DNA of 64,000 bases from IMG/VR virus record IMGVR_UViG_3300022660_000043. One strand, given 5' to 3'. Positions 5,341 through 15,291 of the stretch are shown in pieces; position 1 is the stretch's first letter; each line of letters opens with the position of its first letter. The stretch is from a virus. Its lineage: Duplodnaviria; Caudoviricetes. The notes beneath the pieces were generated by a model, which made no database searches, was not told the origin of the DNA, and saw only the letters and a program-made list of their open reading frames with translations. The position numbers were made by a program, and so were the translations under genes.

Positions 5341-6318
5341 TTAATTTTTAGAGCTATTTTTAAAAACTTTAGTAATGTTGTCAGCTGTAAAATCTTCTTT
5401 GTTCAGAATACGAACAGGTCGACCATATTGATAGGTGCCAGGCAAAGGAATTCCAGGAATTTGAGAGCCATTTACGATACACTCAAATTTCTCTACACCT
5501 TTCTCATCAATATAAGGCATACAACCATCCATAGTAATAGCCTTCCAATAAATACCCTGCATATCCTCACAGAAATGATGCGGATTACCATGAATAGCTC
5601 TTGTTTTGACTAGAATATGATAGCCACCTGAGGTATCAATAATTAAGTAATTACCCAAACCAAATCTTTGGTTAAGGCTGTCAAGCATCTGACTATAATA
5701 GCCTTGGTACCCACAGGCATGATCCTTAAACCACGGCGGAACATCGAGATCAAAGTCAAGCCAATAAACTGAACCCTTACAATGAGCTCTTGCATGCTTT
5801 ACATTGCTTTCAATATTGCTGAAATTTTGATATGACTGCAAATTAGCGTCAAGTGTCTTACCGTTCAACATTGCTTTAACGATAGCTGTCTTAGTATCAT
5901 TAAGCTTCTGCATTACTTCATCAGCTACTTTAAGTTCATCACAAGGATTTACATAAAAGATAGTAGCAATACATTTCTCAGGAAGTGGATAGCCACCAGA
6001 AGTAAGATAAGCTCCCTTATCTACATTAAATCTCTTAAGCTTCTTTACGAAATTAGTCATGTTCCAGCCATCATCTTCGGCAAGATCGGCTGCATCATGA
6101 AACTTTCTAACTCGAAAAGTCTGAGTAGCTAAAAACTCTGCATCCTTTTTTGCAATACCTACCTCAGCTCTTTCCTCTGCAGTAAGCTTCTTAAATCTCG
6201 CTACAAAAACTGCAGCATAAGACTCATTTACTTGTGGCTTCTGAATAACGTGCTCAAAAAACCACTTGAGTTCATCTTCATCTGCAATAACTTCAAAACG
6301 ATCTAAATCTCTGATCAT
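5341..6318 (-). CDS. putative archaeo-eukaryotic primase (AEP)-fold nucleotidyltransferase
   Basis: WLDFDLD (motif I, hhDhD) and DTSGGYH (motif II). Confidence 0.55.
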   Translation of the reverse strand: MIRDLDRFEVIADEDELKWFFEHVIQKPQVNESYAAVFVARFKKLTAEERAEVGIAKKDAEFLATQTFRVRKFHDAADLAEDDGWNMTNFVKKLKRFNVDKGAYLTSGGYPLPEKCIATIFYVNPCDELKVADEVMQKLNDTKTAIVKAMLNGKTLDANLQSYQNFSNIESNVKHARAHCKGSVYWLDFDLDVPPWFKDHACGYQGYYSQMLDSLNQRFGLGNYLIIDTSGGYHILVKTRAIHGNPHHFCEDMQGIYWKAITMDGCMPYIDEKGVEKFECIVNGSQIPGIPLPGTYQYGRPVRILNKEDFTADNITKVFKNSSKN

Positions 6319-7019
6319 CGTATATCCTCCAAAAGCTCCCAGTCCATAAATAAGAAGTGCATCTTATCATGGTGTTTGTTTGTATGCCAATGTCCACAGA
6401 ACCAAGCCTTATAATCAAGTTTATCTTCAATCTCATCAAGCCAACGCTCTGTGCTATCGTCTACCTTAGACTGGTCAATACCAGAAATGAACTCCTCAAC
6501 AGGCTCATACTTAAACGGACAAGTATGCGAGAATACCGCATCTACCTTATAATTTATACTATCAAGTTTTTCGGCGACATTTGCTTTAATAGCCTCAGAA
6601 GGCTGTTCACTCTCAAACCAAGCATAACCACTTGCCAAACGATAATATTTATCTACACTATAGGCACCACCAAGAACGAGGCACTGTTTGCCGGCAAGAG
6701 TATAAACTTGGCCATCAATCGCAAACAGAAGCTTTGGATACTGTGGCTGTCTATATACTAGACCACCACCCCAAAGCATAATCTCGTACCCAGCTACATT
6801 CTGAGGTCGTTCCTCGTGATTACCATGAATACAAAGAATAGTAGCTTCAATATATTTATCCAAAGCTTCTTTTAGCCGATCATCTTTTTTATTAAGATAA
6901 TAATTTGCACCGACATCTCCGAGAAGCACAATAATATCATCTTTAGTTACACCAAGTTGCTGGGCTCTATAAATCAAGAACTCAGGATTTCCATGAATAT
7001 CTCCAGTAATATATACCAT
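6315..7019 (-). CDS. calcineurin-like metallophosphoesterase
   Basis: GDIHG, LGD, GNHE, SH, GHWH motifs; start 7019 with GGAGG. Confidence 0.9.
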   Translation of the reverse strand: MVYITGDIHGNPEFLIYRAQQLGVTKDDIIVLLGDVGANYYLNKKDDRLKEALDKYIEATILCIHGNHEERPQNVAGYEIMLWGGGLVYRQPQYPKLLFAIDGQVYTLAGKQCLVLGGAYSVDKYYRLASGYAWFESEQPSEAIKANVAEKLDSINYKVDAVFSHTCPFKYEPVEEFISGIDQSKVDDSTERWLDEIEDKLDYKAWFCGHWHTNKHHDKMHFLFMDWELLEDIR

Positions 7020-7081
7020 AATAAACCTCCGATACAGTTCTAATATATTATACAACAGGCAAAAAAGAAAAGTTGCGTATT

Positions 7082-7285
7082 TCAGCAACTTTCTTTCTGC
7101 TTTTCTTCCAAAGCTTTATCGATCATATCCCTAATTTCTAATAAGCGTTCTGCAGGGCAATCTAATACTAATTCAAAGTTTTTTGGTACGGCTATTAAAT
7201 CAACACCAACCTTATTTTGAATTACTTTAAACAGCTTCATAAGGTTTTCTTTTGGTAGAGAATCATCATAGTACAGAATGTTCAT
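7082..7285 (-). CDS. hypothetical protein
   Basis: tiling. Confidence 0.6.
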   Translation of the reverse strand: MNILYYDDSLPKENLMKLFKVIQNKVGVDLIAVPKNFELVLDCPAERLLEIRDMIDKALEEKQKESC

Positions 7286-7685
7286 AAGTTATCTCCTTAT
7301 AAAACGGATCTTCAGAGTACTCATAATAATCATCTGCCTCAGAACAGTTATACCAACAAAATTCAACAACACGAATTGCTGAAAATTCAGCTGCCGGCAT
7401 AATCTGAGCAAAAAGCCGAGCAAAAACATTAAACTCAGTTTGATAAAGCTCACGCACTTTGCCCCACTCGCCGTCATTGGCGTCATATTCACGCTCAATT
7501 ACAAAATCAATAAAAGTGCTCTCAGTAGGAGCAAACTGAAATTTGCCTACTTTACCATACTCAAATAAACTCTTAAAATTTTGTTCACAGTACTCTCTAG
7601 CAGCATCAACATCCTCAAACCTATGCTGCCAACCTGTTTTTTCATAAGGAATTCTCAATACCTTTTCTCTTACATAAGTACTCAT
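7266..7685 (-). CDS. hypothetical protein
   Basis: 139 aa, tiling. Confidence 0.7.
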   Translation of the reverse strand: MSTYVREKVLRIPYEKTGWQHRFEDVDAAREYCEQNFKSLFEYGKVGKFQFAPTESTFIDFVIEREYDANDGEWGKVRELYQTEFNVFARLFAQIMPAAEFSAIRVVEFCWYNCSEADDYYEYSEDPFYKEITYEHSVL

Positions 7686-8242
7686 GTTCTAGCCTCCTTA
7701 ACAAAAGTTGCACTTTCATCTGCTACATGAAGAAGCCAAGCCAGAGGGCAATGCTCCCAAGCAGCTGCAATTACATTATTCTCTCCGTCCCAGGTGCCCA
7801 TATGACAATTAATTGATACAGCTTCCTCTGGAAGAAGTCTAATAAAGTTCTGCAGAATAAATACAGACTTACTACCATGTCCACCGTAATGAAGCTCTTC
7901 ATTATGAACATAAGCATCATATGTCTCCCACTTACCCTGAGCATCCTTACGATACTTAACTTCCTTGCCATACATATTTACTTTACACAAATCATGAAAC
8001 AAGGAAATAATAACAAGACTCTCTTCAGAAGCATTGATCTCAGGATAAATAGCAATCAAACGCTTTAACTCATTATATACATTAAGGCTATGTTCAACAA
8101 GTCCACCTTCATAAGCACCGTGATACCGAGTGCTTGCTGGGGCAGTAAAGAAATCACTGTTCTCAAGCCAAGCAAGCAACTCTGGCATTCCTGGTCTCGT
8201 AATAGATTGACACAACGAAATAAAAGTTTCTTTATTTGTCAT
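7682..8242 (-). CDS. HD-domain phosphohydrolase
   Basis: APASTRYH..GGLVEHS, HDLCK, HG, HMG, AD. Confidence 0.9.
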   Translation of the reverse strand: MTNKETFISLCQSITRPGMPELLAWLENSDFFTAPASTRYHGAYEGGLVEHSLNVYNELKRLIAIYPEINASEESLVIISLFHDLCKVNMYGKEVKYRKDAQGKWETYDAYVHNEELHYGGHGSKSVFILQNFIRLLPEEAVSINCHMGTWDGENNVIAAAWEHCPLAWLLHVADESATFVKEART

Positions 8243-9052
8243 TTAGCTCTCCTTGGGAAGAAATCTCTCAATATAGTTTCGGTCCTGTGTAAAAATAGGA
8301 CATTCTTTATCAATATACCACTCAGATCGTGCTGCTCCATTACGCTCTACAGATCTCTTATAGCAACAAACACCACGCTTAAACTCAATAGGCATATCAT
8401 TGAAATTAATACCCTTCTGCCACAACATCTCCTGAATATCTGAAGTAGACTTCTTGTGCAGCTCCTTATGACTAAAGTGTGTTTGTCCAAGCATCTGAAT
8501 GGCATTACGAGTAGCATCTTCTTGCCTCCAGATATACACGTTACAAACTTCTGAGGTAGGAATGCTGAAGCAGCGAGCATCAAACATTGCACCCTTATCC
8601 TTGGCCTTCAGCAGTTCAATAGAATAGTTATCAAGAGTTTTGCCGGCAGTATACTCATTAACATAAGTTCTGAAAGCCTTATTGAAGTGCAAGGTAGCCA
8701 TAGAAGCAGCAATAGAGCACATCTTTTGCACACCGTATCCAAACCAAGCATCAGTATTAATAGTGTCGTAATCAGTCAACAGAAGTGAAATTTCGTCGCT
8801 CTGTGTATATCCAAACTTACAACCCTGGATATTTTTACAAAGATACTGCAAGGTAGAATTCATTGCCTTATGGAAAACCTCGTCATAAGGCTTTTGAAAA
8901 TTCTTACAAAATGAATGAAAACATTTGCCGTCGATTCGAATCACCACAGGAAGCCTTCTGGTAAGATAAGTCTTAGCTCTATTTTCATAATTATTTTTCA
9001 TTCTATCGCCGAGCGAATCTTTTTTATTTGCCATAACATAATTGCCTTTCAT
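8243..9052 (-). CDS. thg1: tRNA(His) guanylyltransferase / Thg1-like 3'-5' polymerase
   Basis: RIDGKCFH, YTQSDEISL, FDAR, WRQEDATRN; start may be 9034. Confidence 0.92.
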   Translation of the reverse strand: MKGNYVMANKKDSLGDRMKNNYENRAKTYLTRRLPVVIRIDGKCFHSFCKNFQKPYDEVFHKAMNSTLQYLCKNIQGCKFGYTQSDEISLLLTDYDTINTDAWFGYGVQKMCSIAASMATLHFNKAFRTYVNEYTAGKTLDNYSIELLKAKDKGAMFDARCFSIPTSEVCNVYIWRQEDATRNAIQMLGQTHFSHKELHKKSTSDIQEMLWQKGINFNDMPIEFKRGVCCYKRSVERNGAARSEWYIDKECPIFTQDRNYIERFLPKES

Positions 9053-9172
9053 TATTTAATTTTATTTAACTCTTTTATGATTACGTGAAGCCTCTCCAAT
9101 ATGACATTTGTGTTCTGCAGATAATGGGAGCTTTCCTCTTAGCCAACCAAGCGCCAAATATGTAAAAAATTA

Positions 9173-9409
9173 TTAATCTCGTCTTTTGTTAGCTTTACAG
9201 ATAGCTCTAACAATTCCGATAAAGACACCTACAATAAAAATTACGATACAAACCGCAACAAAAAGTGCAATAGGAATCCAAAGAGGTGCTGTTACCCACC
9301 ACCAGGACCAATTAATTATATTACAAAGTTTAAGAACCAGAAAAACAATAAAAACCAAACCACTGAGGGTAATACCACCACCAGCGCTAACTCCACTTTC
9401 TCTATTCAC
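9173..9409 (-). CDS. small membrane protein (LKL..I.WSWWWV.APLW family)
   Basis: two hydrophobic segments, characteristic motif. Confidence 0.75.
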   Translation of the reverse strand: MNRESGVSAGGGITLSGLVFIVFLVLKLCNIINWSWWWVTAPLWIPIALFVAVCIVIFIVGVFIGIVRAICKANKRRD

Positions 9410-9414
9410 AGCTA

Positions 9415-9819
9415 TTACCTCGTTCTAAATTTACCAAAAGGCAAAGTAGCCCAACGAATAATACACTGTCTGCAAGTCTCTTGGTCTGTATTCTCATCCT
9501 CAGTTGCCTGGCAAACATAATCCTTAACATCTGGCGGGCACTTATCCGCTACTGCAAGCTCAAGAGCTTCCAATAGTCTCTTAGACTTTGCAGTATCGGG
9601 TCCGGCTACCTTAGCTGCCCAGTTTCTAAAGCACTGCGCACAGATCTCTTCCTCAGAACCCTTAGCATTAGGGTCTTCACAAAGGTAATCTACATTTTCA
9701 GGTGGACAGTCTTCTCCAAGAGCAGATCTGAGTACATCATACAAATGCTCCTCTCTTGCAGTATCAAGAGAATAATCATACATTTTATCCTTAATAGGAT
9801 CAAGCTCTGATCTAATCAT
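9415..9819 (-). CDS. hypothetical protein with two CPP-x-C-x-CxxC repeats
   Basis: DCPPENVDYLC...CAQC and KCPPDVKDYVC...CRQC. Confidence 0.7.
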   Translation of the reverse strand: MIRSELDPIKDKMYDYSLDTAREEHLYDVLRSALGEDCPPENVDYLCEDPNAKGSEEEICAQCFRNWAAKVAGPDTAKSKRLLEALELAVADKCPPDVKDYVCQATEDENTDQETCRQCIIRWATLPFGKFRTR

Positions 9820-10238
9820 TCTTTATCAATCTCCTTCTTAGATTTATCACAGGTACAAAAATAGTCAGCTGGGATCTCTGCAATAGTTTCATCTGCCTTA
9901 TTTAATATCCAATAGGTATAACTATTTTTAACAGTCTCAAACTTAAGTACAGCAGTATCAGCATTTGTACTAATAATCTCAAGCTTTTCAATAGCTATCG
10001 GTCTAATATGTCTATGGTACTTACCTTTGCCGTCTACATATTCAAAACGAGTGATAGGCTTGGAATAGGGAGCACTATTAATAACCTGAACATCAGAAGT
10101 AAGTTCAACTCTATAGGTATCAGAGCTCTTAAGCAAAAACCTAAGAGCCTGATCCCTAAGATCACTTAAATTAAGTGCTTCCTGTAGATCTCTATAGTGT
10201 TGTTCACTAAGGTCCCGCCAATATTTCTTAGTTCTCAT
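9816..10238 (-). CDS. hypothetical protein
   Basis: tiling; start MRTKK. Confidence 0.65.
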   Translation of the reverse strand: MRTKKYWRDLSEQHYRDLQEALNLSDLRDQALRFLLKSSDTYRVELTSDVQVINSAPYSKPITRFEYVDGKGKYHRHIRPIAIEKLEIISTNADTAVLKFETVKNSYTYWILNKADETIAEIPADYFCTCDKSKKEIDKE

Positions 10239-10239
10239 A

Positions 10240-11658
10240 TTACATCTCCGCAAGGACATCCTCTGCTACGTCAGCAGTAGACTCGGCAAGCTTCTCGCCA
10301 ATAATTCCCTCAAGAACCTTGAAAGAGAAATTTTTATGCTTGAAAGCAGCAAACTTAGGACGGTTTACGATACGTACCACTACACCCTCACGAGTATGGG
10401 TCTTGCCAACAGGATCAGGACCATCGAAGTAGTCCTCAGCGCAACGCATAATCATATCTCCAAGCTCACCATCGCCAATAAGGTAATCATGATCATAGCC
10501 ATTAGGTGCAGTGAAATGAAGTCTATCCTCAGAAAGAGTAGCCTTACCAAATACAAGAACAGTCTTTACACCCATCTGCTCACAACGGTAACGCATGAAG
10601 TCAGGAGTATACTCTACAACCTCTCCGTCCTCGTTAGTCATAGTCATACGATATACGTAGATATCTGACTGAGGCAGTGCATTTTCAACACCAATTTGGT
10701 TATGCTCTTCATCAAGATAATACCCAACACCATTAGGAGCACAGCCATAGGAGAACACAGTCTCCTTACCATACTGCTTTACAAAGTCTTTACCAAGCTT
10801 CTCGTTATTACCATTACCCATGATAGGTGCTCCAGTGTGAGTAAAGCCTACGACCTCGTAATAAACAGTCTCACCCTTCCAAAGCTTTCCTACAAAAGTA
10901 TCATGATGCTGCTTACGGAACTCATTAGAGCCATAGAAGCCGCCATCAAAAGTATCGAGTACTACACGACGAGTACCAGATACATAGCCCCAGTCATATA
11001 CAGGCTTACCAGGTCTATGAAGAATACGATCCATAATAGATCTCTTATAACCAGTAAGTACCTTCAAATGGCCAGTACGCTGGGAAGTACCATGCATCTT
11101 AAGAGAAAGCTCAAGCTCATCGCCAACCTTGAAAGCTCCAAGATTATACGCAAGCTGCTCAGTATCTGCATGCTCTGCAAAGGTAGGTGCAATAGGTGCC
11201 TTAAACTTACGAGTATGATTACCCTCAGATACATGACCTCTACGTGCCTGAGTACGAGGGATGTACTTAGTGCAAATCTCCTCACCATTAAATACATCAA
11301 TACGGTCTCCTACTCTAAGGGTAGAGATATCACCAAAAGACTCAAGACAATGGAGAGGAAGGAAAAGACCATCAGACTTCTCGCCTCTAAGCTTAATAGC
11401 AGTTACATTTCTCTTATCAGGATCCATGTAGCCACCAATATTATTGCCATCAGCATCCTTCTTTCTAAGAAGGTTATTAGCCTCAGCAAACTTCACAGAA
11501 AGCTGGCCACCGGTAGGGAAATATACACCAAGTTGGCCCTCAGTATAATCAAGAGATACGCAAACAGTGTTACCGAACACATCAGCAAGCTGCAAACGAT
11601 CTGCATTAGGATGCTTTCTAACATCCTTCAAAGTAGTTACAATAGCATAATAACTCAT
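10240..11658 (-). CDS. RNA ligase with N-terminal tRNA-binding OB-fold (DRB0094/Rnl2-like)
   Basis: HPNADRL OB-fold motif; KMHGT (I), YEVVG (III), EGVVVR (IV), FKHKN (V). Confidence 0.85.
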   Translation of the reverse strand: MSYYAIVTTLKDVRKHPNADRLQLADVFGNTVCVSLDYTEGQLGVYFPTGGQLSVKFAEANNLLRKKDADGNNIGGYMDPDKRNVTAIKLRGEKSDGLFLPLHCLESFGDISTLRVGDRIDVFNGEEICTKYIPRTQARRGHVSEGNHTRKFKAPIAPTFAEHADTEQLAYNLGAFKVGDELELSLKMHGTSQRTGHLKVLTGYKRSIMDRILHRPGKPVYDWGYVSGTRRVVLDTFDGGFYGSNEFRKQHHDTFVGKLWKGETVYYEVVGFTHTGAPIMGNGNNEKLGKDFVKQYGKETVFSYGCAPNGVGYYLDEEHNQIGVENALPQSDIYVYRMTMTNEDGEVVEYTPDFMRYRCEQMGVKTVLVFGKATLSEDRLHFTAPNGYDHDYLIGDGELGDMIMRCAEDYFDGPDPVGKTHTREGVVVRIVNRPKFAAFKHKNFSFKVLEGIIGEKLAESTADVAEDVLAEM

Positions 11659-11690
11659 AATAATGTCTCCTTTATTTTTACTTCATTTAA

Positions 11691-12590
11691 TTATACATTG
11701 TGCCAGTGTACATTTTCAAAGTCTGCCACAAAAATAAGATGATTTCTTTCTAAATAAATATTTTTAAAGTCTTCAAAATAAGAGGTATTGAATCCAAAAG
11801 TAGAAGGCATGTCAACAAAGAATCTTGCAAGCGGGTCAATGTGCCCTTCATACGTATAAAGCTTTGCAGGACATACCTTACCAAAGCGTTCGAGGTAACT
11901 TCTACAGAAATTACGGTATTGATGCTCAGGCATGATTACATAACAGGGAAATTGCTCGGAATCCTTAATCATCTGCTGAATCCAAGCAGTTTTTCCGCAT
12001 CCTCGACCTGCACGGAATTTATGTACTCTAGCAAAAGGAGGACGACCAAAACGACCTCTTACAAGCTCTTTAACTAGAATATAAAACTCTTTCCAGGAAC
12101 CTACTCGATAATCCTGCACAGTAGAATTCTGATTATAAGGTGCATCAAAAAGAACCTTAATCCCCTGACAACCTACAAGATTGTGCTCTGCATCATCGAG
12201 AATAATGTCGCAACGAATAAGTGACTTATTATAAGTAATAATTACATTCTCTTTATCTAAAAATGGAAAATGAGCAAACAAGCACTTCTTAAGCTTATAA
12301 GGCAAAGTCTTATAATGTGAACTTGTAATGACATAGATCTCGTGACCTTCTTGCATCAAACGTGCTACCACATCTACTGCCTCTGGTTTAATCTTTACCT
12401 CATCCCAAAACTCAGGTGTGTTAAGAGGTTCAAAAAGATCTGCCTTAGACAAAAAAGGATAGCATTTAGCGAGCTCCCAATCTTTAACCTCGTCAACTGC
12501 TACCGACCTACCATGCTTTCTATTTAGCCACTCAATCCAAGTATCAAGCATGCTATTAATAGTGCTGTCAAAATCAATTCCGATAACCAT
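11691..12590 (-). CDS. 5'(3')-deoxyribonucleotidase (NT5C, HAD) with C-terminal P-loop-like extension
   Basis: GIDFDST, ITS, K, LDDAEHN, APYN; extension has GRGCGKT. Confidence 0.85.
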   Translation of the reverse strand: MVIGIDFDSTINSMLDTWIEWLNRKHGRSVAVDEVKDWELAKCYPFLSKADLFEPLNTPEFWDEVKIKPEAVDVVARLMQEGHEIYVITSSHYKTLPYKLKKCLFAHFPFLDKENVIITYNKSLIRCDIILDDAEHNLVGCQGIKVLFDAPYNQNSTVQDYRVGSWKEFYILVKELVRGRFGRPPFARVHKFRAGRGCGKTAWIQQMIKDSEQFPCYVIMPEHQYRNFCRSYLERFGKVCPAKLYTYEGHIDPLARFFVDMPSTFGFNTSYFEDFKNIYLERNHLIFVADFENVHWHNV

Positions 12591-12617
12591 TTTATATTTT
12601 TCTCCTTATTAAAGGTT

Positions 12618-12736
12618 TGGCCCAAGACCCAGGACTTGAACCTGGACGCTACCCTGATCATTGATAGCTGATCTATTCCGACCTGCGTCTACCGTGATAG
12701 GACTTACCAACCTGCCTATACTTCCGCCAGCCTTGG
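12618..12736 (-). ncRNA. tRNA-like RNA TL1 (class II scaffold, D-loop insertion, degenerate anticodon arm, CCA)
   Basis: CCAAGGC/GTCTTGG-G-CCA acceptor; CCAGG-TTCAAGT-CCTGG T arm; TGGCGGAA...GGTAGACGC D arm. Confidence 0.75.
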
Positions 12737-12746
12737 ATATAAAAAT

Positions 12747-12809
12747 TAGGGGTCATTATGAGATTTGAACTCATCAAGGCGTCCCTCGCTCACCTAAAAG
12801 CAATGACCC
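12747..12809 (-). ncRNA. minimal tRNA-like RNA TL2 (~62 nt)
   Basis: GGGTCATT/AATGACCC stem; ATGAG-TTCAAAT-CTCAT T arm; GCT/AGC D arm; GAGG-GACG-CCTT mini arm. Confidence 0.7.
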
Positions 12810-12818
12810 ATACAGCAA

Positions 12819-12926
12819 AAATTTAATAGCTGTTCGTCTAACTCCATTTACTACAGCTCCTGTACCCAAGCATGACGCATTCTCAAAGCGTTTCTTGCAT
12901 CTTGGCTTTGTGGCACTATTAAATTT
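12819..12926 (-). ncRNA. repeated structured RNA motif, copy A
   Basis: AATTTAATAG/CTATTAAATT closing stem around GTGCCACAAAGCC...AGCTGTAGTAAATGGAGTTAGACGAACAGC. Confidence 0.75.
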
Positions 12927-12936
12927 AATACAGATA

Positions 12937-13055
12937 GGGGTGAAGGAGATGGGATTTCGTTACCCACAACACACCCGATATTTACTCAGGCCGCTCTTAT
13001 TACTTATCGCTCTTTACCTCAAGCTTTATAACTTCGCAATTGGCGTACTCCTTCA
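12937..13055 (-). ncRNA. tRNA-like RNA TL3 (expanded D-loop, 9-nt T loop)
   Basis: TGAAGGAG/CTCCTTCA stem; GTGGG/CCCAT arm; CCTGA-GTAAATA-TCGGG arm. Confidence 0.55.
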
Positions 13056-13103
13056 TTTGGGTTGCATGCAAAAAACTTATTTTATTCGTTCAGAAAAAAC
13101 AAG

Positions 13104-13362
13104 CAAAAACTCCTAGCTGTCAATACTTGACAAATCGTATATAGCTGCTTCCGAGCCGCCAGAAGCACCGCTAGTACGTCTCTAAAACCCAGTCATAACC
13201 GCCTACTGACTGCTAGCGCCCACTTTTCTCTAGACCTTCCCACCTTAGTCCTACACAGTTCCTTCTCATCAATCCCAGTAGATAAGCGGATCTACTGCTG
13301 TGCCCACAAATTTAGGTTGCGCTCTCCCTACAGCTTATAAACTGTTGGGCGGAGTATCCTCA
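13104..13362 (-). ncRNA. ~255-nt multibranched structured RNA, unassigned
   Basis: ACTCC/GGAGT closing; CAGTAGAT/ATCTACTG, CACAG/CTGTG, CAGTCA/TGACTG, CGCTAG/CTAGCG, GCTTC/GAAGC, TGTCAA/TTGACA stems. Confidence 0.55.
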
Positions 13363-13411
13363 CAAAAATCAAAAATCATTAAAATAAGGTCTCCTTCCTA
13401 AATAAAAGATT

Positions 13412-13515
13412 TCAAAGAGCTGTTCATCTCACTCCATTTACTACTGCTGCTTCAGGGACACCGCTTTCCGATACAGGCTTGCCTAACGCTCAATCGGCTT
13501 CGTAGCACTCTTTGA
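13412..13515 (-). ncRNA. repeated structured RNA motif, copy B
   Basis: TCAAAGAG/CTCTTTGA closing; GTGCTACGAAGCC...AGCAGTAGTAAATGGAGTGAGATGAACAGC. Confidence 0.8.
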
Positions 13516-13583
13516 TAATAAGTCTCTTGTTTTGGCAGTCCAAGCGAAGACTACGGGGAACTTCCCACGTTCAACACCAAATC

Positions 13584-13685
13584 AGACCCGGCTGTTTAAC
13601 TCTTTCCATTACCACAGCTTCTTACAACCTCACCAAATACTTCGCTCATGATCTCCATATTCAGCGCTTCGTGGCACCCAAGTCT
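13584..13685 (-). ncRNA. repeated structured RNA motif, copy C
   Basis: AGACTTGG/CCGGGTCT closing with G-U pairs; GTGCCACGAAGC...AGCTGTGGTAATGGAAAGAGTTAAACAGC. Confidence 0.75.
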
Positions 13686-13769
13686 CAGCAACTGTCAAAG
13701 CTCGTTGCACTCTTCCCTTCTGAGTTTGTTTCTCTACGAGTCTCAGCCGGTTGGCGTATTGTTCGTAGT

Positions 13770-13846
13770 GTAGGCTGGTTTTCGCATTATCCATTTACCA
13801 CAGTTTTCCTCCGTTCATGCTTGACTTCCGGCTTCGTGGCACCTAC
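13770..13846 (-). ncRNA. repeated structured RNA motif, copy D (shortest)
   Basis: GTAGG/CCTAC closing; GTGCCACGAAGCC...AACTGTGGTAAATGGATAATGCGAAAACCAGC. Confidence 0.75.
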
Positions 13847-13847
13847 T

Positions 13848-13980
13848 TGTGAGCTGTTCATTGCACTCCATTTACCACTGCTCCAGCTTCCGTCTCTTAA
13901 TCCCATATTGGCATTGGCTTCTTAGGCCATCTCTTAACTGCCGTATCTACATTAAGTCCATAGGCTTCGTGGCACTCACA
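13848..13980 (-). ncRNA. repeated structured RNA motif, copy E (longest, promoter-proximal)
   Basis: TGTGAG/CTCACA closing; GTGCCACGAAGCC...AGCAGTGGTAAATGGAGTGCAATGAACAGC. Confidence 0.8.
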
Positions 13981-13995
13981 TTATATAATACAATA
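13981..13995 (-). promoter_or_regulatory. class II promoter (TATTGTATTATATAA) driving the ncRNA block
   Basis: same motif precedes many other transcription units. Confidence 0.7.
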
Positions 13996-14024
13996 GGGAG
14001 CTTAGAAATTTAAGCTCCCTTTTT
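13995..14024. terminator. hairpin AGGGAGCTTA-N-TAAGCTCCCT insulating the ncRNA block
   Basis: 10-bp inverted repeat at end of upstream operon. Confidence 0.6.
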
Positions 14025-14725
14025 ATAATTTTTCCAATCTTTTTTCCACTGCTTTGAGTATTTGTCAAGAATATGTTCCACAATAACAGCATTACCTTGT
14101 TCTATACCACAAGATCCAGCAAAATACCAATCATCTCCGAGTAAATAATCACAGAGTATGTGTATTGCAGTCTGAGCATTAAGTGGTGGAGGATAAATAC
14201 CATAAGTAGTATCCTCAATATTATCTCTCATTAAGTCAAAGCTCTTGTTGTAAATATAATTCTCTTTCTTTTTCACGCTCCAATACCATCGCTTTCATTT
14301 TTGCTAAATCAGCTCCATCAATATATACAGTTCCACAATTTGCACAAACCAAAGGCTCTACAGAAAAACCAAAATAGCGATTAGTTGTAAGCTTTAAGTA
14401 ACAGCAAGCATCAGTAGCGTCTGATCTAAGCTTTAAAACTTGATTATACCCACAATTAGGACAACCTCTAATATTTGTCATATTTAACTCCTTATCCTGC
14501 ATCAAACATAAGTTCAGGGATCTTAGTAGTCTTCTGTCCAGGTGTAAGATTAAACTCTGTATCAAATCTGAATCTAGGTCTAAAATCACCATCTCCATCT
14601 GCATAAAAACCAACAAGAGAAGAATGTCCTAAACTACCATTTCTTTGAATATACCTCAAAAAAGAACAAAAGTCATCAACCCAGCGCTCTTCCATAGTAA
14701 CTTCAATATTAAACGTTTTTTCCAT
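14010..14725 (-). other. three small hypothetical CDSs (14010-~14230, 14236-14481 Zn-ribbon, 14492-14725)
   Basis: tiling; CPNCG...CANCG. Confidence 0.65.
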
Positions 14726-15291
14726 TATACTATATCTCCTATATTACGTACTTCTACTTGACAAGACTGCATTACTCTAAGTGCTGCTACGTGGGCATCC
14801 GGAGTAGTACCGGCACAACAAGAAGCATCGCAGCTAATAACCGTCTTTTCACCCCAAACAGACGCCTTTAAGATAAGCGCATTAGAAACCACACAAATAT
14901 CAGTACAAAAACCAATAAGCTCAATCTCTTCAATAGGCTCTTTTTCAAGCAGCTTCTCCGGTACACACATTTCAACTCTATGATAAAGCTCAAGATCACC
15001 GAAACGGGTCTTAGTTAGCCGCCAACGACCCTCCAAAAACTCTTTAAGCTCAGGCACAATATACCAACCTTCAGTCTCATCAATACAATGCTTAACAGGC
15101 AGGTACTTTCCTTCCATAGTTTTATCATAATCGTCAAAATGTGTATCCTGCGTAAATACTACTTGCCAGCCTTCATCAATTCGCTGCTGAATCTTTTCTT
15201 TAATAACAGGGATTTTAGCCTGAGCTTCAGGATTTGCCAGAGTACCAGTCACAAAATCATTCTGAACATCAACTACCAGTAATACTTTCAT
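14725..15291 (-). CDS. pncA: nicotinamidase/isochorismatase-family cysteine hydrolase
   Basis: VDVQNDF, QDTH, HC, K, CTDICV catalytic pattern. Confidence 0.8.
   Translation of the reverse strand: MKVLLVVDVQNDFVTGTLANPEAQAKIPVIKEKIQQRIDEGWQVVFTQDTHFDDYDKTMEGKYLPVKHCIDETEGWYIVPELKEFLEGRWRLTKTRFGDLELYHRVEMCVPEKLLEKEPIEEIELIGFCTDICVVSNALILKASVWGEKTVISCDASCCAGTTPDAHVAALRVMQSCQVEVRNIGDIV

What the first reader, a model, noticed from the sequence alone, without database searches (positions are those of the whole stretch)
12618..12736. TL1: CCA-ended tRNA mimic with a 28-nt hairpin in the D-loop and no proper anticodon loop
Seen: intact 7-bp acceptor stem + G-CCA, perfect T arm, long variable arm (GCTATC/GGTAGC) and Leu-like D arm (GCGGAA...GGTAGACGC). 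The D-loop contains GTATAGG-CAGGTTGGTAAGT-CCTATCAC. The anticodon arm is only GGTC-GGAATA-GATC (6-nt loop, no U33). The inserted loop contains TTGGTAA, which resembles a Thr(GGU) anticodon loop, but its flanking pairing is weak. Intact elbow and acceptor with an altered decoding arm suggests selection as a mimic rather than random decay (inference).
Basis: partly seen in the sequence, partly recalled or inferred. Interest (0 to 1): 0.7.

Follow-up and report, generated by a model that had tools for sequence, protein, structure and literature searches.

The report
Anticodon-less phage tRNA look-alike RNA
A large gut phage carries a conserved gene for an RNA that keeps the upper body and CCA tail of a leucine tRNA, cannot read codons, and has an extra hairpin grafted into its D-loop. 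It is a new variant of the phage 'tRNA-like stable RNAs', whose function is still unknown, and it sits just ahead of a block of RNA-repair genes.

Summary
TL1 is a 119-nt element on the minus strand (12736 to 12618). It has a 7-bp acceptor stem, G73-CCA, a normal T arm, a long variable arm and a leucine-type D arm. A 28-nt hairpin sits in the D-loop, and a 4-bp stem with a 6-nt loop stands where the anticodon arm should be.

It is not a decaying tRNA. Ten distinct versions exist, one per genome, in related ~220-233 kb gut or rumen phages and in one metagenome assembly. All 27 tested pairs are kept (99.6% of cells paired). Eight pairs carry changes on both sides. No relative has a normal tRNA at this place, and most carry two D-loop hairpins rather than one.

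The anticodon-position loop (GGARWA) and the base of the hairpin (GGCR...UAAGYCC) are conserved.

TL1 closes a non-coding RNA array and lies 22-27 nt upstream of a phosphatase, RNA ligase and Thg1-like repair operon. It is an offshoot of the widespread anticodon-less tRNA-Leu shell RNAs. This scan has met that class before on other DNA, and its only described relatives are the T5 and T4 stable RNAs of unknown function.

Its function is unproven. My best guess is a tRNA-processed stable scaffold or decoy RNA. TL1's expression was not shown.

The parts
12737..12741 (-). 5' leader UAUAU directly before the first base of TL1; U at -1
   Evidence: Identical in all 10 family members (contexts printed). 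U(-1) is the preferred RNase P leader base (established knowledge). That it serves processing is inference.
12730..12736 (-). Acceptor stem, 5' strand (pairs with 12622-12628)
   Evidence: 7 bp, 100% paired in 10 sequences, 3 pairs with changes on both sides.
12724..12729 (-). U8 G9 and D-stem 5' strand GCG(G), leucine type
   Evidence: Invariant. Same D arm as the phage's own tRNA-Leu(UAA) and as the widespread phage Leu-shell RNAs.
12694..12721 (-). 28-nt hairpin inserted in the D-loop at the variable 16/17 pocket; conserved base GGCR...UAAGYCC, variable tip
   Evidence: Present once here. Eight relatives carry two such hairpins; L157 carries one plus an unrelated hairpin. The stems differ between relatives but still pair (UAUAGG/CCUAUC, CAGG/CCUG, AAAGG/CCUUU, GUAGG/CCUAC). 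Found nowhere else in five phage genomes.
12685..12693 (-). G18 G19 UAGA and D-stem 3' strand CGC
   Evidence: Invariant. G18G19 are the partners of the T-loop in the tRNA elbow (established knowledge).
12670..12683 (-). Mini-hairpin in the anticodon position: 4-bp stem, 6-nt loop GGAAUA (family GGARWA)
   Evidence: 3 of the 4 pairs change on both sides between the two clades while the loop stays. There is no 7-nt loop and no U33 in any member.
12648..12668 (-). Long variable arm (6 bp, 9-nt loop)
   Evidence: The outer 4 pairs are 100% paired with one double change. The other clade has a 7-bp arm with loop UGACGA.
12629..12645 (-). T arm (5 bp, loop UUCAAGU)
   Evidence: 100% paired. The T-loop consensus U54 U55 C56 R57 A58 is kept in all members.
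12618..12628 (-). Acceptor 3' strand, discriminator G73, encoded CCA
   Evidence: CCA is invariant. G73 in 9 members, A73 in one (L007).
12588..12617 (-). 27-nt spacer with AAGGAG ribosome-binding site, then the ATG of the HAD phosphatase (NT5C) gene 11691-12590
   Evidence: A spacer of 22-27 nt before an ORF with an RBS is seen in the relatives.
8243..12590 (-). Downstream same-strand genes: NT5C/HAD phosphatase with a weak P-loop match, RNA ligase, two unknown genes, Thg1-like 3'-5' polymerase (HD and metallophosphoesterase genes follow at 6315-8242)
   Evidence: Pfam and PHROGs hits: NT5C 1e-27, phrog_968 RNA ligase 4e-65, Thg1 3e-32 / phrog_4717 3e-93, HD, Metallophos.
12747..13990 (-). 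Upstream ORF-free RNA array (five repeated scaffold motifs, a ~255-nt RNA, tRNA-like TL3 and TL2) that TL1 closes
   Evidence: Sequence. No sigma-70 promoter or terminator was called between 13990 and 12590 on this strand. RNA contigs from 4 metatranscriptomes cover the array.

Best explanation
TL1 is a working, non-decoding RNA derived from a leucine tRNA.

Shown:
- Its tRNA upper half is under purifying selection: acceptor stem, CCA end, T arm, and a D arm with G18G19.
- Its anticodon arm is replaced in every member by a conserved 4-bp/6-nt mini-hairpin.
- One or two hairpins with a conserved base motif sit in the D-loop, at the pocket where tRNAs naturally tolerate extra bases.

Inferred:
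- It is transcribed as the last unit of the RNA array, together with the repair genes behind it.
- The host's tRNA machinery cuts it out (RNase P at the U(-1)/C1 junction, 3' trimming to the encoded CCA).
- It then persists as a stable L-shaped ~119-nt RNA. The same cuts would also free the upstream RNAs and the downstream mRNA.
- The tRNA shell serves as a chassis for processing and stability. The conserved non-tRNA surfaces (D-loop hairpin, GGARWA loop) are the working parts.
- Most likely they hold a protein that reads tRNA upper halves. TL1 would then act as a decoy or adaptor in the conflict over tRNA damage and repair, which is what its neighbouring genes serve.

My odds: selected functional RNA 0.9; matured like a tRNA 0.7; decoy or adaptor role 0.35.
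For: - Ten distinct homologues, one copy per genome, in 135-233 kb phage contigs and one metagenome assembly.
- 27 pairs are 99.6% paired, 8 have double changes, 0 of 500 shuffles reach that, and slid controls give 34-47%.
- The loop GGARWA and the motif GGCR...UAAGYCC stay constant while their stems and the hairpin tips change.
- CCA, G18G19, the T-loop and the UAUAU leader are invariant (contexts).
- With the insert removed, ARAGORN sees a full long-arm cloverleaf with a 6-nt loop in all ten.
- Position is fixed in the six family members with enough upstream and downstream sequence to check: last element of the RNA array and 22-27 nt before the NT5C gene, which in the window is followed by RNA ligase and Thg1-like genes.
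- The model built from TL1 aligns end to end with anticodon-less Leu-shell RNAs of unrelated phages (41 bits, E 4e-10). That class has over 120 loci and 86 different centres.
- Phage T5's record annotates such molecules as stable tRNA-like RNAs.
Against: - No RNA evidence for TL1 itself.
- The covariation rests mainly on two clades. cmbuild's effective sequence number is 1.23, so independent events are few.
- Single-sequence folding is no better than shuffles.
- No partner protein is identified, and the hairpin motif matches no motif I could name.
- Three relatives (L180, L184, L185) have other genes behind TL1, so the link to the repair genes is not strict.
- C1-G72 with G73 matches no identity set I could recognise, so charging is open.
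Confidence: 0.5

Rival explanations
1. Pure processing punctuation. TL1 exists only as an RNase P / 3'-end signal that separates the upstream RNAs from the repair-operon mRNA, like mitochondrial tRNA punctuation or the MALAT1-mascRNA junction. The released RNA would have no job of its own.
For: - It sits exactly at the RNA-array/mRNA junction in the six members where both flanks could be checked, and directly before an ORF with an RBS in all relatives.
- Other tRNA-like pieces (TL2, TL3) are interspersed in the same array.
- The parts RNase P needs (acceptor/T stack, elbow, RCCA, U-1) are the most conserved.
- One RNA contig (12405-12624) ends within 7 nt of the CCA end, which is a very weak hint.
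Against: RNase P needs none of the following, yet all are conserved or kept by compensatory change: the GGARWA loop, the long variable arm, and the D-loop hairpin motif. A minimal TL2-like element would be enough.
Confidence: 0.2
2. A chargeable tRNA-like amino-acid carrier. TL1 would be aminoacylated by a synthetase that ignores the anticodon (LeuRS or SerRS both read long-arm tRNAs). It would then donate or sequester the amino acid outside the ribosome, or soak up the synthetase.
For: The CCA is invariant, and the discriminator, long variable arm, elbow and Leu-type D arm are all conserved. It is established that LeuRS and SerRS do not need the anticodon.
Against: - G73, not the A73 that bacterial LeuRS requires, in 9 of 10 members.
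- C1-G72 and C2-G71 differ from the usual bacterial Ser acceptor set (from memory).
- The large insert just before G18G19 changes the D-loop geometry that LeuRS reads (from memory).
- I found no transferase gene nearby.
Confidence: 0.12
3. A decaying tRNA-Leu pseudogene with a chance insertion and no function.
For: tRNA detectors fail on it. Its folding energy is ordinary. The phage has a proper tRNA-Leu(UAA) elsewhere.
Against: Compensatory changes occur in acceptor, mini-hairpin, variable arm and hairpin stems across relatives whose flanking protein is 57-70% identical. It is single-copy with fixed synteny, and its loops are invariant.
Confidence: 0.04
4. A true decoding tRNA that becomes normal after removal of the D-loop insert (an intron).
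For: An RNA ligase gene lies next door.
Against: With the insert removed, all ten still have a 4-bp stem and 6-nt loop, with no U33 and no constant anticodon. Reading the variable arm as the anticodon arm fails in the second clade, which has the 6-nt loop UGACGA.
Confidence: 0.03

Closest known systems
Phage T5 RNA1 and RNA2 (record AY543070, annotated 'tRNA-like stable RNA with unknown functions')
   Same: Both are phage-encoded, tRNA-sized or larger RNAs with acceptor and T arms and no normal anticodon arm. RNA1 has the same leucine-type D arm (..GGAAUUGGUAGACGG).
   Different: - T5's RNAs lie inside the tRNA cluster and carry their extra RNA in the anticodon/variable-arm position.
- TL1 keeps a variable arm, has a fixed mini-hairpin, puts the extra hairpin in the D-loop, encodes CCA, and heads an RNA-repair operon.
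- TL1's model does not hit them.
- RNA2 contains the octamer GUAAGUCC, but the MFE fold puts it inside a long helix, so it is not the same module.
Widespread anticodon-less tRNA-Leu 'shell' RNAs of uncultured phages (constant acceptor/D/T frame, hypervariable centre), met repeatedly in this scan on other genomes
   Same: Same D arm, same overall frame, and a short purine-rich mini-hairpin right after the D arm in some members. TL1's model aligns end to end with one at 41 bits, E 4e-10. At least two members (L051, L082) carry the same GGCA...UAAGUCC hairpin.
   Different: - The shells have one near-invariant acceptor (GUCAGG..), A73, no encoded CCA, a centre that differs in almost every copy, and often several copies per genome.
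- TL1 has its own covarying acceptor, G73-CCA, a conserved centre and a single copy.
- In TL1 the added module is in the D-loop.
Phage T4 RNAC and RNAD (species 1 and 2 RNAs)
   Same: Small stable RNAs encoded with phage tRNAs and processed with them. Their function is still unknown (PMC9697503).
   Different: I made no sequence or model comparison here. Their tRNA-like ends are recalled from memory only.
tRNA-like processing elements such as mascRNA at the MALAT1 3' end, and mitochondrial tRNA punctuation
   Same: A tRNA-shaped, non-decoding element at the border between transcripts. tRNA-processing enzymes could use it to define ends.
   Different: Those are eukaryotic or organellar. Processing of TL1 is not shown, and TL1 has extra conserved surfaces that punctuation does not need.
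Engineered 'tRNA scaffold' for expressing recombinant RNAs (Ponchon and Dardel; from memory)
   Same: A tRNA body is used so that cell enzymes process and protect an inserted RNA.
   Different: That scaffold is artificial and takes its insert in the anticodon stem. TL1 is natural and takes its insert in the D-loop.

Membership tests
Canonical decoding tRNA (long-arm, Leu type) | 7-bp acceptor, T arm with U54 U55 C56 R57 A58, D arm with G18G19 | tested here: met
   Direct reading. Conserved in 10 sequences.
Canonical decoding tRNA (long-arm, Leu type) | 5-bp anticodon stem with a 7-nt loop, U33 and an anticodon | tested here: not met
   4-bp stem and 6-nt loop GGARWA in all ten. ARAGORN reports a two-base anticodon after the insert is removed.
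Canonical decoding tRNA (long-arm, Leu type) | Recognised by tRNA detectors and covariance models | tested here: not met
   ARAGORN default and Rfam RF00005 are silent, even at E up to 10.
Canonical decoding tRNA (long-arm, Leu type) | A73 discriminator of bacterial tRNA-Leu | tested here: not met
   G73 in 9 of 10 members, A73 only in L007.
Intron-bearing tRNA (Lak-phage type or archaeal type) | Removing the insert restores a normal tRNA | tested here: not met
   In-silico removal still leaves an abnormal anticodon arm. ARAGORN's intron model needs mispaired stems.
Phage anticodon-less tRNA-Leu shell RNAs (T5 RNA1-like) | Leucine-type D arm plus acceptor and T arm, with no anticodon arm | tested here: met
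   The model R1 hits shell RNAs at 25-41 bits.
Phage anticodon-less tRNA-Leu shell RNAs (T5 RNA1-like) | Variable cargo replaces the anticodon arm and variable arm; the frame sequence is near-constant | tested here: not met
   TL1 keeps a variable arm and a conserved mini-hairpin. Its added RNA is in the D-loop, and its acceptor covaries.
Phage anticodon-less tRNA-Leu shell RNAs (T5 RNA1-like) | Accumulates as a stable small RNA | not testable with these tools
   The RNA runs were contigs only, and no listed piece lies on TL1.
Bacterial Y-RNA-like YrlA | Match to the family model; closed acceptor-like stem; Ro-binding helix formed by the two ends | tested here: not met
   No Rfam match at E up to 10. 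TL1 has an open acceptor with a free CCA.
tmRNA tRNA-like domain | G3.U70 alanine identity and a tag reading frame | tested here: not met
   A3-U70 is invariant. ARAGORN finds no tmRNA.
tRNA-type punctuation / RNase P processing signal | Cleavage by RNase P at the 5' end of the acceptor stem | not testable with these tools
   Only the sequence prerequisites are present: 12-bp acceptor/T stack, U(-1), RCCA.

The most novel reading that the evidence does not exclude
The D-loop hairpins may be T-loop-type modules. Their last seven loop bases, (U/G)(G/A)UAAGU followed by CC, parallel TL1's own T-loop UUCAAGU-CC. Two such hairpins stand side by side in most relatives, much like the paired T-loops that RNase P, T-box leaders and the ribosome use to dock on tRNA elbows. 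TL1 would then be a tRNA-shaped RNA that grips other tRNAs or tRNA-binding proteins. That would make it an RNA-only counter-defence, encoded with the heal-and-seal enzymes, that shields or sequesters targets of host tRNA-attacking immunity.
Probability: 0.15. Interest if true: 0.85.

Novelty: new variant of a known kind. Interest (0 to 1): 0.58.

Why it matters
Phage 'tRNA-like stable RNAs' have been known in T4 and T5 for decades without a function. Metagenomes now show that they are very common.

TL1 is informative because its whole body is conserved, unlike the shells with hypervariable centres. Its working surfaces can therefore be read from the alignment: a 6-nt loop and a D-loop hairpin base. 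It is also tied by position to an RNA end-healing, ligation and 5'-repair gene block. That gives a concrete hypothesis, a role in the conflict over tRNA damage, and concrete mutations to test.

It also shows that the D-loop 16/17 pocket can carry whole hairpins in a natural tRNA-shaped RNA. That is useful for tRNA gene finders, which miss it, and for RNA scaffold design.

Tried and rejected
- **RNA evidence.** Four metatranscriptome runs from two studies, available as contigs only, were laid on 10000-15000. The upstream array is covered at depths up to ~240. No listed piece lies on TL1, so nothing can be said about its expression. One contig (12405-12624) stops 7 nt inside TL1's 3' end, which is too weak to use.
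- **Thr(GGU) anticodon-loop reading of UUGGUAA.** Not conserved in any relative.
- **ARAGORN intron call, tRNA-Pro(cgg).** It needs mispaired D and anticodon stems.
- **Variable arm as the true anticodon arm** (loop AUGAUCA, GAU, C37). It needs an A.G closing pair and fails in the other clade.
- **Kinship with the 115-nt tRNA-shaped insert in this phage's split tRNA.** The arm sequences printed look different by eye; no alignment was run.
- **Is the hairpin a dispersed module in these phages?** No. It occurs only inside TL1 in five genomes.
- **T5 RNA2 shares the octamer GUAAGUCC.** The MFE fold buries it in a long helix, so it was not counted.
- **Reading the hairpin motif by eye** as an 11-nt tetraloop receptor, K-turn, loop E, UAA/GAN or GNRA. 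None fits all members.
- **blastn against 50,697 GenBank phages.** No match for the 801-nt region or for TL1 alone. The shell RNA also has no match.
- **Pattern scan of 185,579 prokaryote genomes.** 15 matches, none inside a TL1-like element: no T-loop motif follows and none shows a TL1-like frame.
- **A distant NT5C relative (L344, 28% identity).** It has neither TL1 nor a tRNA upstream.
- **Sigma-70 promoter and terminator scan.** Nothing between the array start and the NT5C gene on the minus strand.
- **Literature.** Four full-text searches found no description of this family.

Full report
**What is there.** TL1 lies on the minus strand, from 12736 (5') to 12618 (CCA end), and is 119 nt long.
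- a 7-bp acceptor stem with one G.U;
- U8 G9 and a 3-bp D stem with leucine-type flanks;
- a 28-nt hairpin inside the D-loop, just before G18G19;
- a 4-bp stem with a 6-nt loop where the anticodon arm should be;
- a 6-bp variable arm;
- a standard T arm, then G73 and an encoded CCA.

Standard detectors miss it: ARAGORN at default settings and Rfam's tRNA model, even at E up to 10. ARAGORN's intron mode forces it into a 'tRNA-Pro(cgg) with a 24-nt intron' whose D and anticodon stems are mispaired, and I reject that call. When I cut the D-loop insert out in silico, ARAGORN recognises the element and all nine relatives as complete long-arm cloverleaves with an undetermined two-base anticodon. The insert is therefore what blinds the detectors, and the anticodon loop is abnormal in its own right. 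Thermodynamics alone says nothing (z = -0.75).

**Where it comes from.** The window is part of an 88-kb IMG/VR virus record estimated to be 38% complete. Pattern scans and a search with the neighbouring protein recovered nine further distinct versions. They come from viral contigs of 135, 146, 220 and 233 kb, plus several short contigs of one metagenome assembly. The 220-kb and 233-kb contigs are 96-100% complete. DNA of this phage is found in animal faeces and gut metagenomes.

A covariance model built from the ten sequences finds exactly one strong copy per genome (99-174 bits). Below that it finds only weak hits of 12-36 bits and tRNA length. I checked one of them, which is the annotated tRNA-Ile(UAU); the others are presumably the phages' ordinary tRNAs. 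blastn finds nothing in GenBank phages. A pattern scan of one genome per prokaryote species finds no TL1-like element.

**Selection.** I counted 27 pairs of the cloverleaf on the alignment, including the closing pairs of the second D-loop hairpin.
- 99.6% of 262 cells form standard pairs.
- Eight pairs have changes on both sides.
- No shuffle out of 500 reaches the observed values.
- Sliding the partners by 1-3 columns drops pairing to 34-47%.

The acceptor changes at three pairs. The mini-hairpin changes at three of its four pairs (GGUC/GAUC against CCGC/GCGG) while its loop stays GGARWA. The variable arm has a different sequence and length in the two clades but pairs in both.

Two cautions apply. 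The sample is essentially two clades with many near-identical members (effective number 1.23), so the number of independent events is small. I also derived the structure from these same sequences. Even so, the flanking NT5C protein is only 57-70% identical between members. Neutral decay is therefore not a tenable reading.

**The unusual parts.**
- The insert sits between position 15/16 and G18G19. That is the D-loop pocket where tRNAs naturally vary in length (established knowledge), so it should not disturb the elbow.
- Eight relatives carry two such hairpins. One (L157) carries one of this type plus an unrelated hairpin.
- The stems differ but pair. The hairpin tips vary in sequence and length (13-17 nt loops).
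- The base is constant: GGCR on the 5' side and UAAGYCC on the 3' side.
- The Thr-like UUGGUAA of the window's copy is not conserved.
- The last seven loop bases plus CC parallel the element's own T-loop. I take this as a hint of a T-loop-like fold or of an origin by partial T-arm duplication. This is inference.
- The hairpin occurs nowhere else in five of these phage genomes.

**Context.** TL1 is the last element of a ~1.4-kb ORF-free stretch. That stretch holds five copies of a scaffold RNA motif, a ~255-nt RNA and two further tRNA-like pieces (earlier notes e1-5674237 and e1-5674238). No sigma-70 promoter or terminator is called between the start of that stretch and the next gene.

TL1's CCA lies 27 nt upstream of an ATG preceded by AAGGAG. 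The gene encodes a HAD/NT5C phosphatase with a weak P-loop match. It is followed on the same strand by an RNA ligase (phrog_968, 4e-65), two unknown genes, a Thg1-like enzyme (phrog_4717, 3e-93), an HD phosphohydrolase and a metallophosphoesterase. This is a plausible RNA end-healing, sealing and 5'-repair set.

The five relatives with enough upstream sequence (L003, L007/L013, L015, L157, L163) keep TL1 at the end of the array or of its last structured element. Six (those five plus L173) have the NT5C gene directly behind it. Three short metagenome contigs have other genes behind it. All ten share a UAUAU leader directly before C1.

**Expression.** Only contigs of four metatranscriptomes could be laid. 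They cover the upstream array strongly, partly through relatives' copies. No listed piece lies on TL1, so expression of TL1 is neither shown nor excluded.

**The wider family.** While looking for relatives I ran into a much larger class. More than 120 IMG/VR loci share an almost invariant leucine-tRNA frame. The acceptor is GUCAGG.., the D arm is the same as TL1's, the T arm is standard, the discriminator is A73, and no CCA is encoded. This frame encloses a centre of 23-112 nt that is different in 86 of 92 parsed cases. Only one case is a real tRNA-Leu. Up to six copies lie in one 2.3-kb stretch.

TL1's model aligns end to end with one of them at 41 bits. At least two (L051, L082) carry the same GGCA...UAAGUCC hairpin, but in the variable-arm position. 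This scan has reported that class several times on other genomes, with phage T5 RNA1 and RNA2 as the closest described relatives. I checked that lead. The T5 record annotates RNA1 and RNA2 as 'tRNA-like stable RNA with unknown functions', and RNA1 has the Leu-type D arm. TL1's model does not hit either. T4's RNAC and RNAD are likewise still without a function (PMC9697503).

**Interpretation.** TL1 is best seen as a lineage-specific, fully conserved offshoot of the phage anticodon-less tRNA-Leu RNAs. It has three differences from them. The added RNA is in the D-loop rather than in place of the anticodon arm. The centre is fixed rather than hypervariable. It heads a repair operon rather than sitting in a tRNA cluster.

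The parts that RNase P, the CCA end and the elbow need are all intact, so maturation by the host's tRNA enzymes is the natural expectation (inferred). The further conserved surfaces argue that the released RNA does something itself. I rate a decoy or adaptor role for a factor that reads tRNA upper halves as most likely (0.35). Pure punctuation follows at 0.2, and a chargeable carrier at 0.12. Pseudogene and 'real tRNA after splicing' are close to excluded.

**Verdict.**
- Observation: confirmed.
- Novelty: a new variant of a known but functionally unexplained kind.
- Interest: moderate to high for tRNA and phage RNA biology, limited by the lack of expression data and of a partner.

Noticed in passing
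L144:6721-8998 (six copies), L051:3843-3931, L032, L082, L099, L141 and loci L204-L320: A very widespread phage RNA class. It has a near-invariant tRNA-Leu frame (acceptor GUCAGG.., Leu D arm, T arm, A73, no CCA) around a hypervariable 23-112 nt centre. More than 120 IMG/VR loci match, and 86 of 92 parsed centres are distinct. Only one (L264) is a true tRNA-Leu(GAG). ARAGORN miscalls some, for example Val(aac) and Ala(ggc).
   Followed up: partly
window 12747-12809 (-): TL2, directly upstream of TL1. It can be drawn with an 8-bp acceptor whose extra first G pairs with C73, which is the tRNA-His hallmark, and a Thg1-like (tRNA-His guanylyltransferase family) gene lies 3.7 kb downstream. It is conserved in L157's contig but absent from the other clade.
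   Followed up: no
window 12937-13055 (-): TL3, another tRNA-like piece with a large D-loop insert, is conserved in L195. RNA contigs from two runs of one study (X21 record 3, X22 record 10) align up to 13055, its proposed 5' end.
   Followed up: partly
window 6315-12590 (-): A same-strand block: HAD/NT5C phosphatase with a weak P-loop match, RNA ligase, two unknown genes, Thg1-like enzyme, HD phosphohydrolase, an unknown gene and a calcineurin-type phosphoesterase. It looks like an RNA end-healing, sealing and 5'-repair module.
   Followed up: partly
window 14010-14276 (-): An 88-aa ORF matches Pfam Tad8, a type II Thoeris inhibitor (4e-20). It lies just upstream of the RNA array, next to an isochorismatase-domain gene (14725-15291).
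   Followed up: no
G000:C1:87617-87808 (about 6.8 kb before the window start): ARAGORN's intron mode reports a tRNA split by a 115-nt insert that itself ends in a T arm and ACCA. By eye its printed arm sequences differ from TL1's; no alignment was run.
   Followed up: partly
window 12737-12741 (-) and the same place in L003, L007, L015, L157, L163, L173, L180, L184, L185: The five bases before TL1's first nucleotide are UAUAU in all ten members. That is more conserved than an RNase P leader needs. In the second clade a GC-rich hairpin followed by a U-run, which looks like a terminator, stands directly before it.
   Followed up: no
L345:6960-7084 (-) (phage T5 RNA2): T5 RNA2 contains the octamer GUAAGUCC that marks TL1's D-loop hairpin. 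The MFE fold puts it inside a 12-bp helix, so the likeness may be chance.
   Followed up: partly
window 13405-13451 (-) versus 12817-12861 (-): The 3' halves of two scaffold-motif copies are 83% identical. Metatranscriptome contigs pile up on these motif cores with loose ends on both sides. This shows that many related phages express RNAs sharing the core.
   Followed up: no
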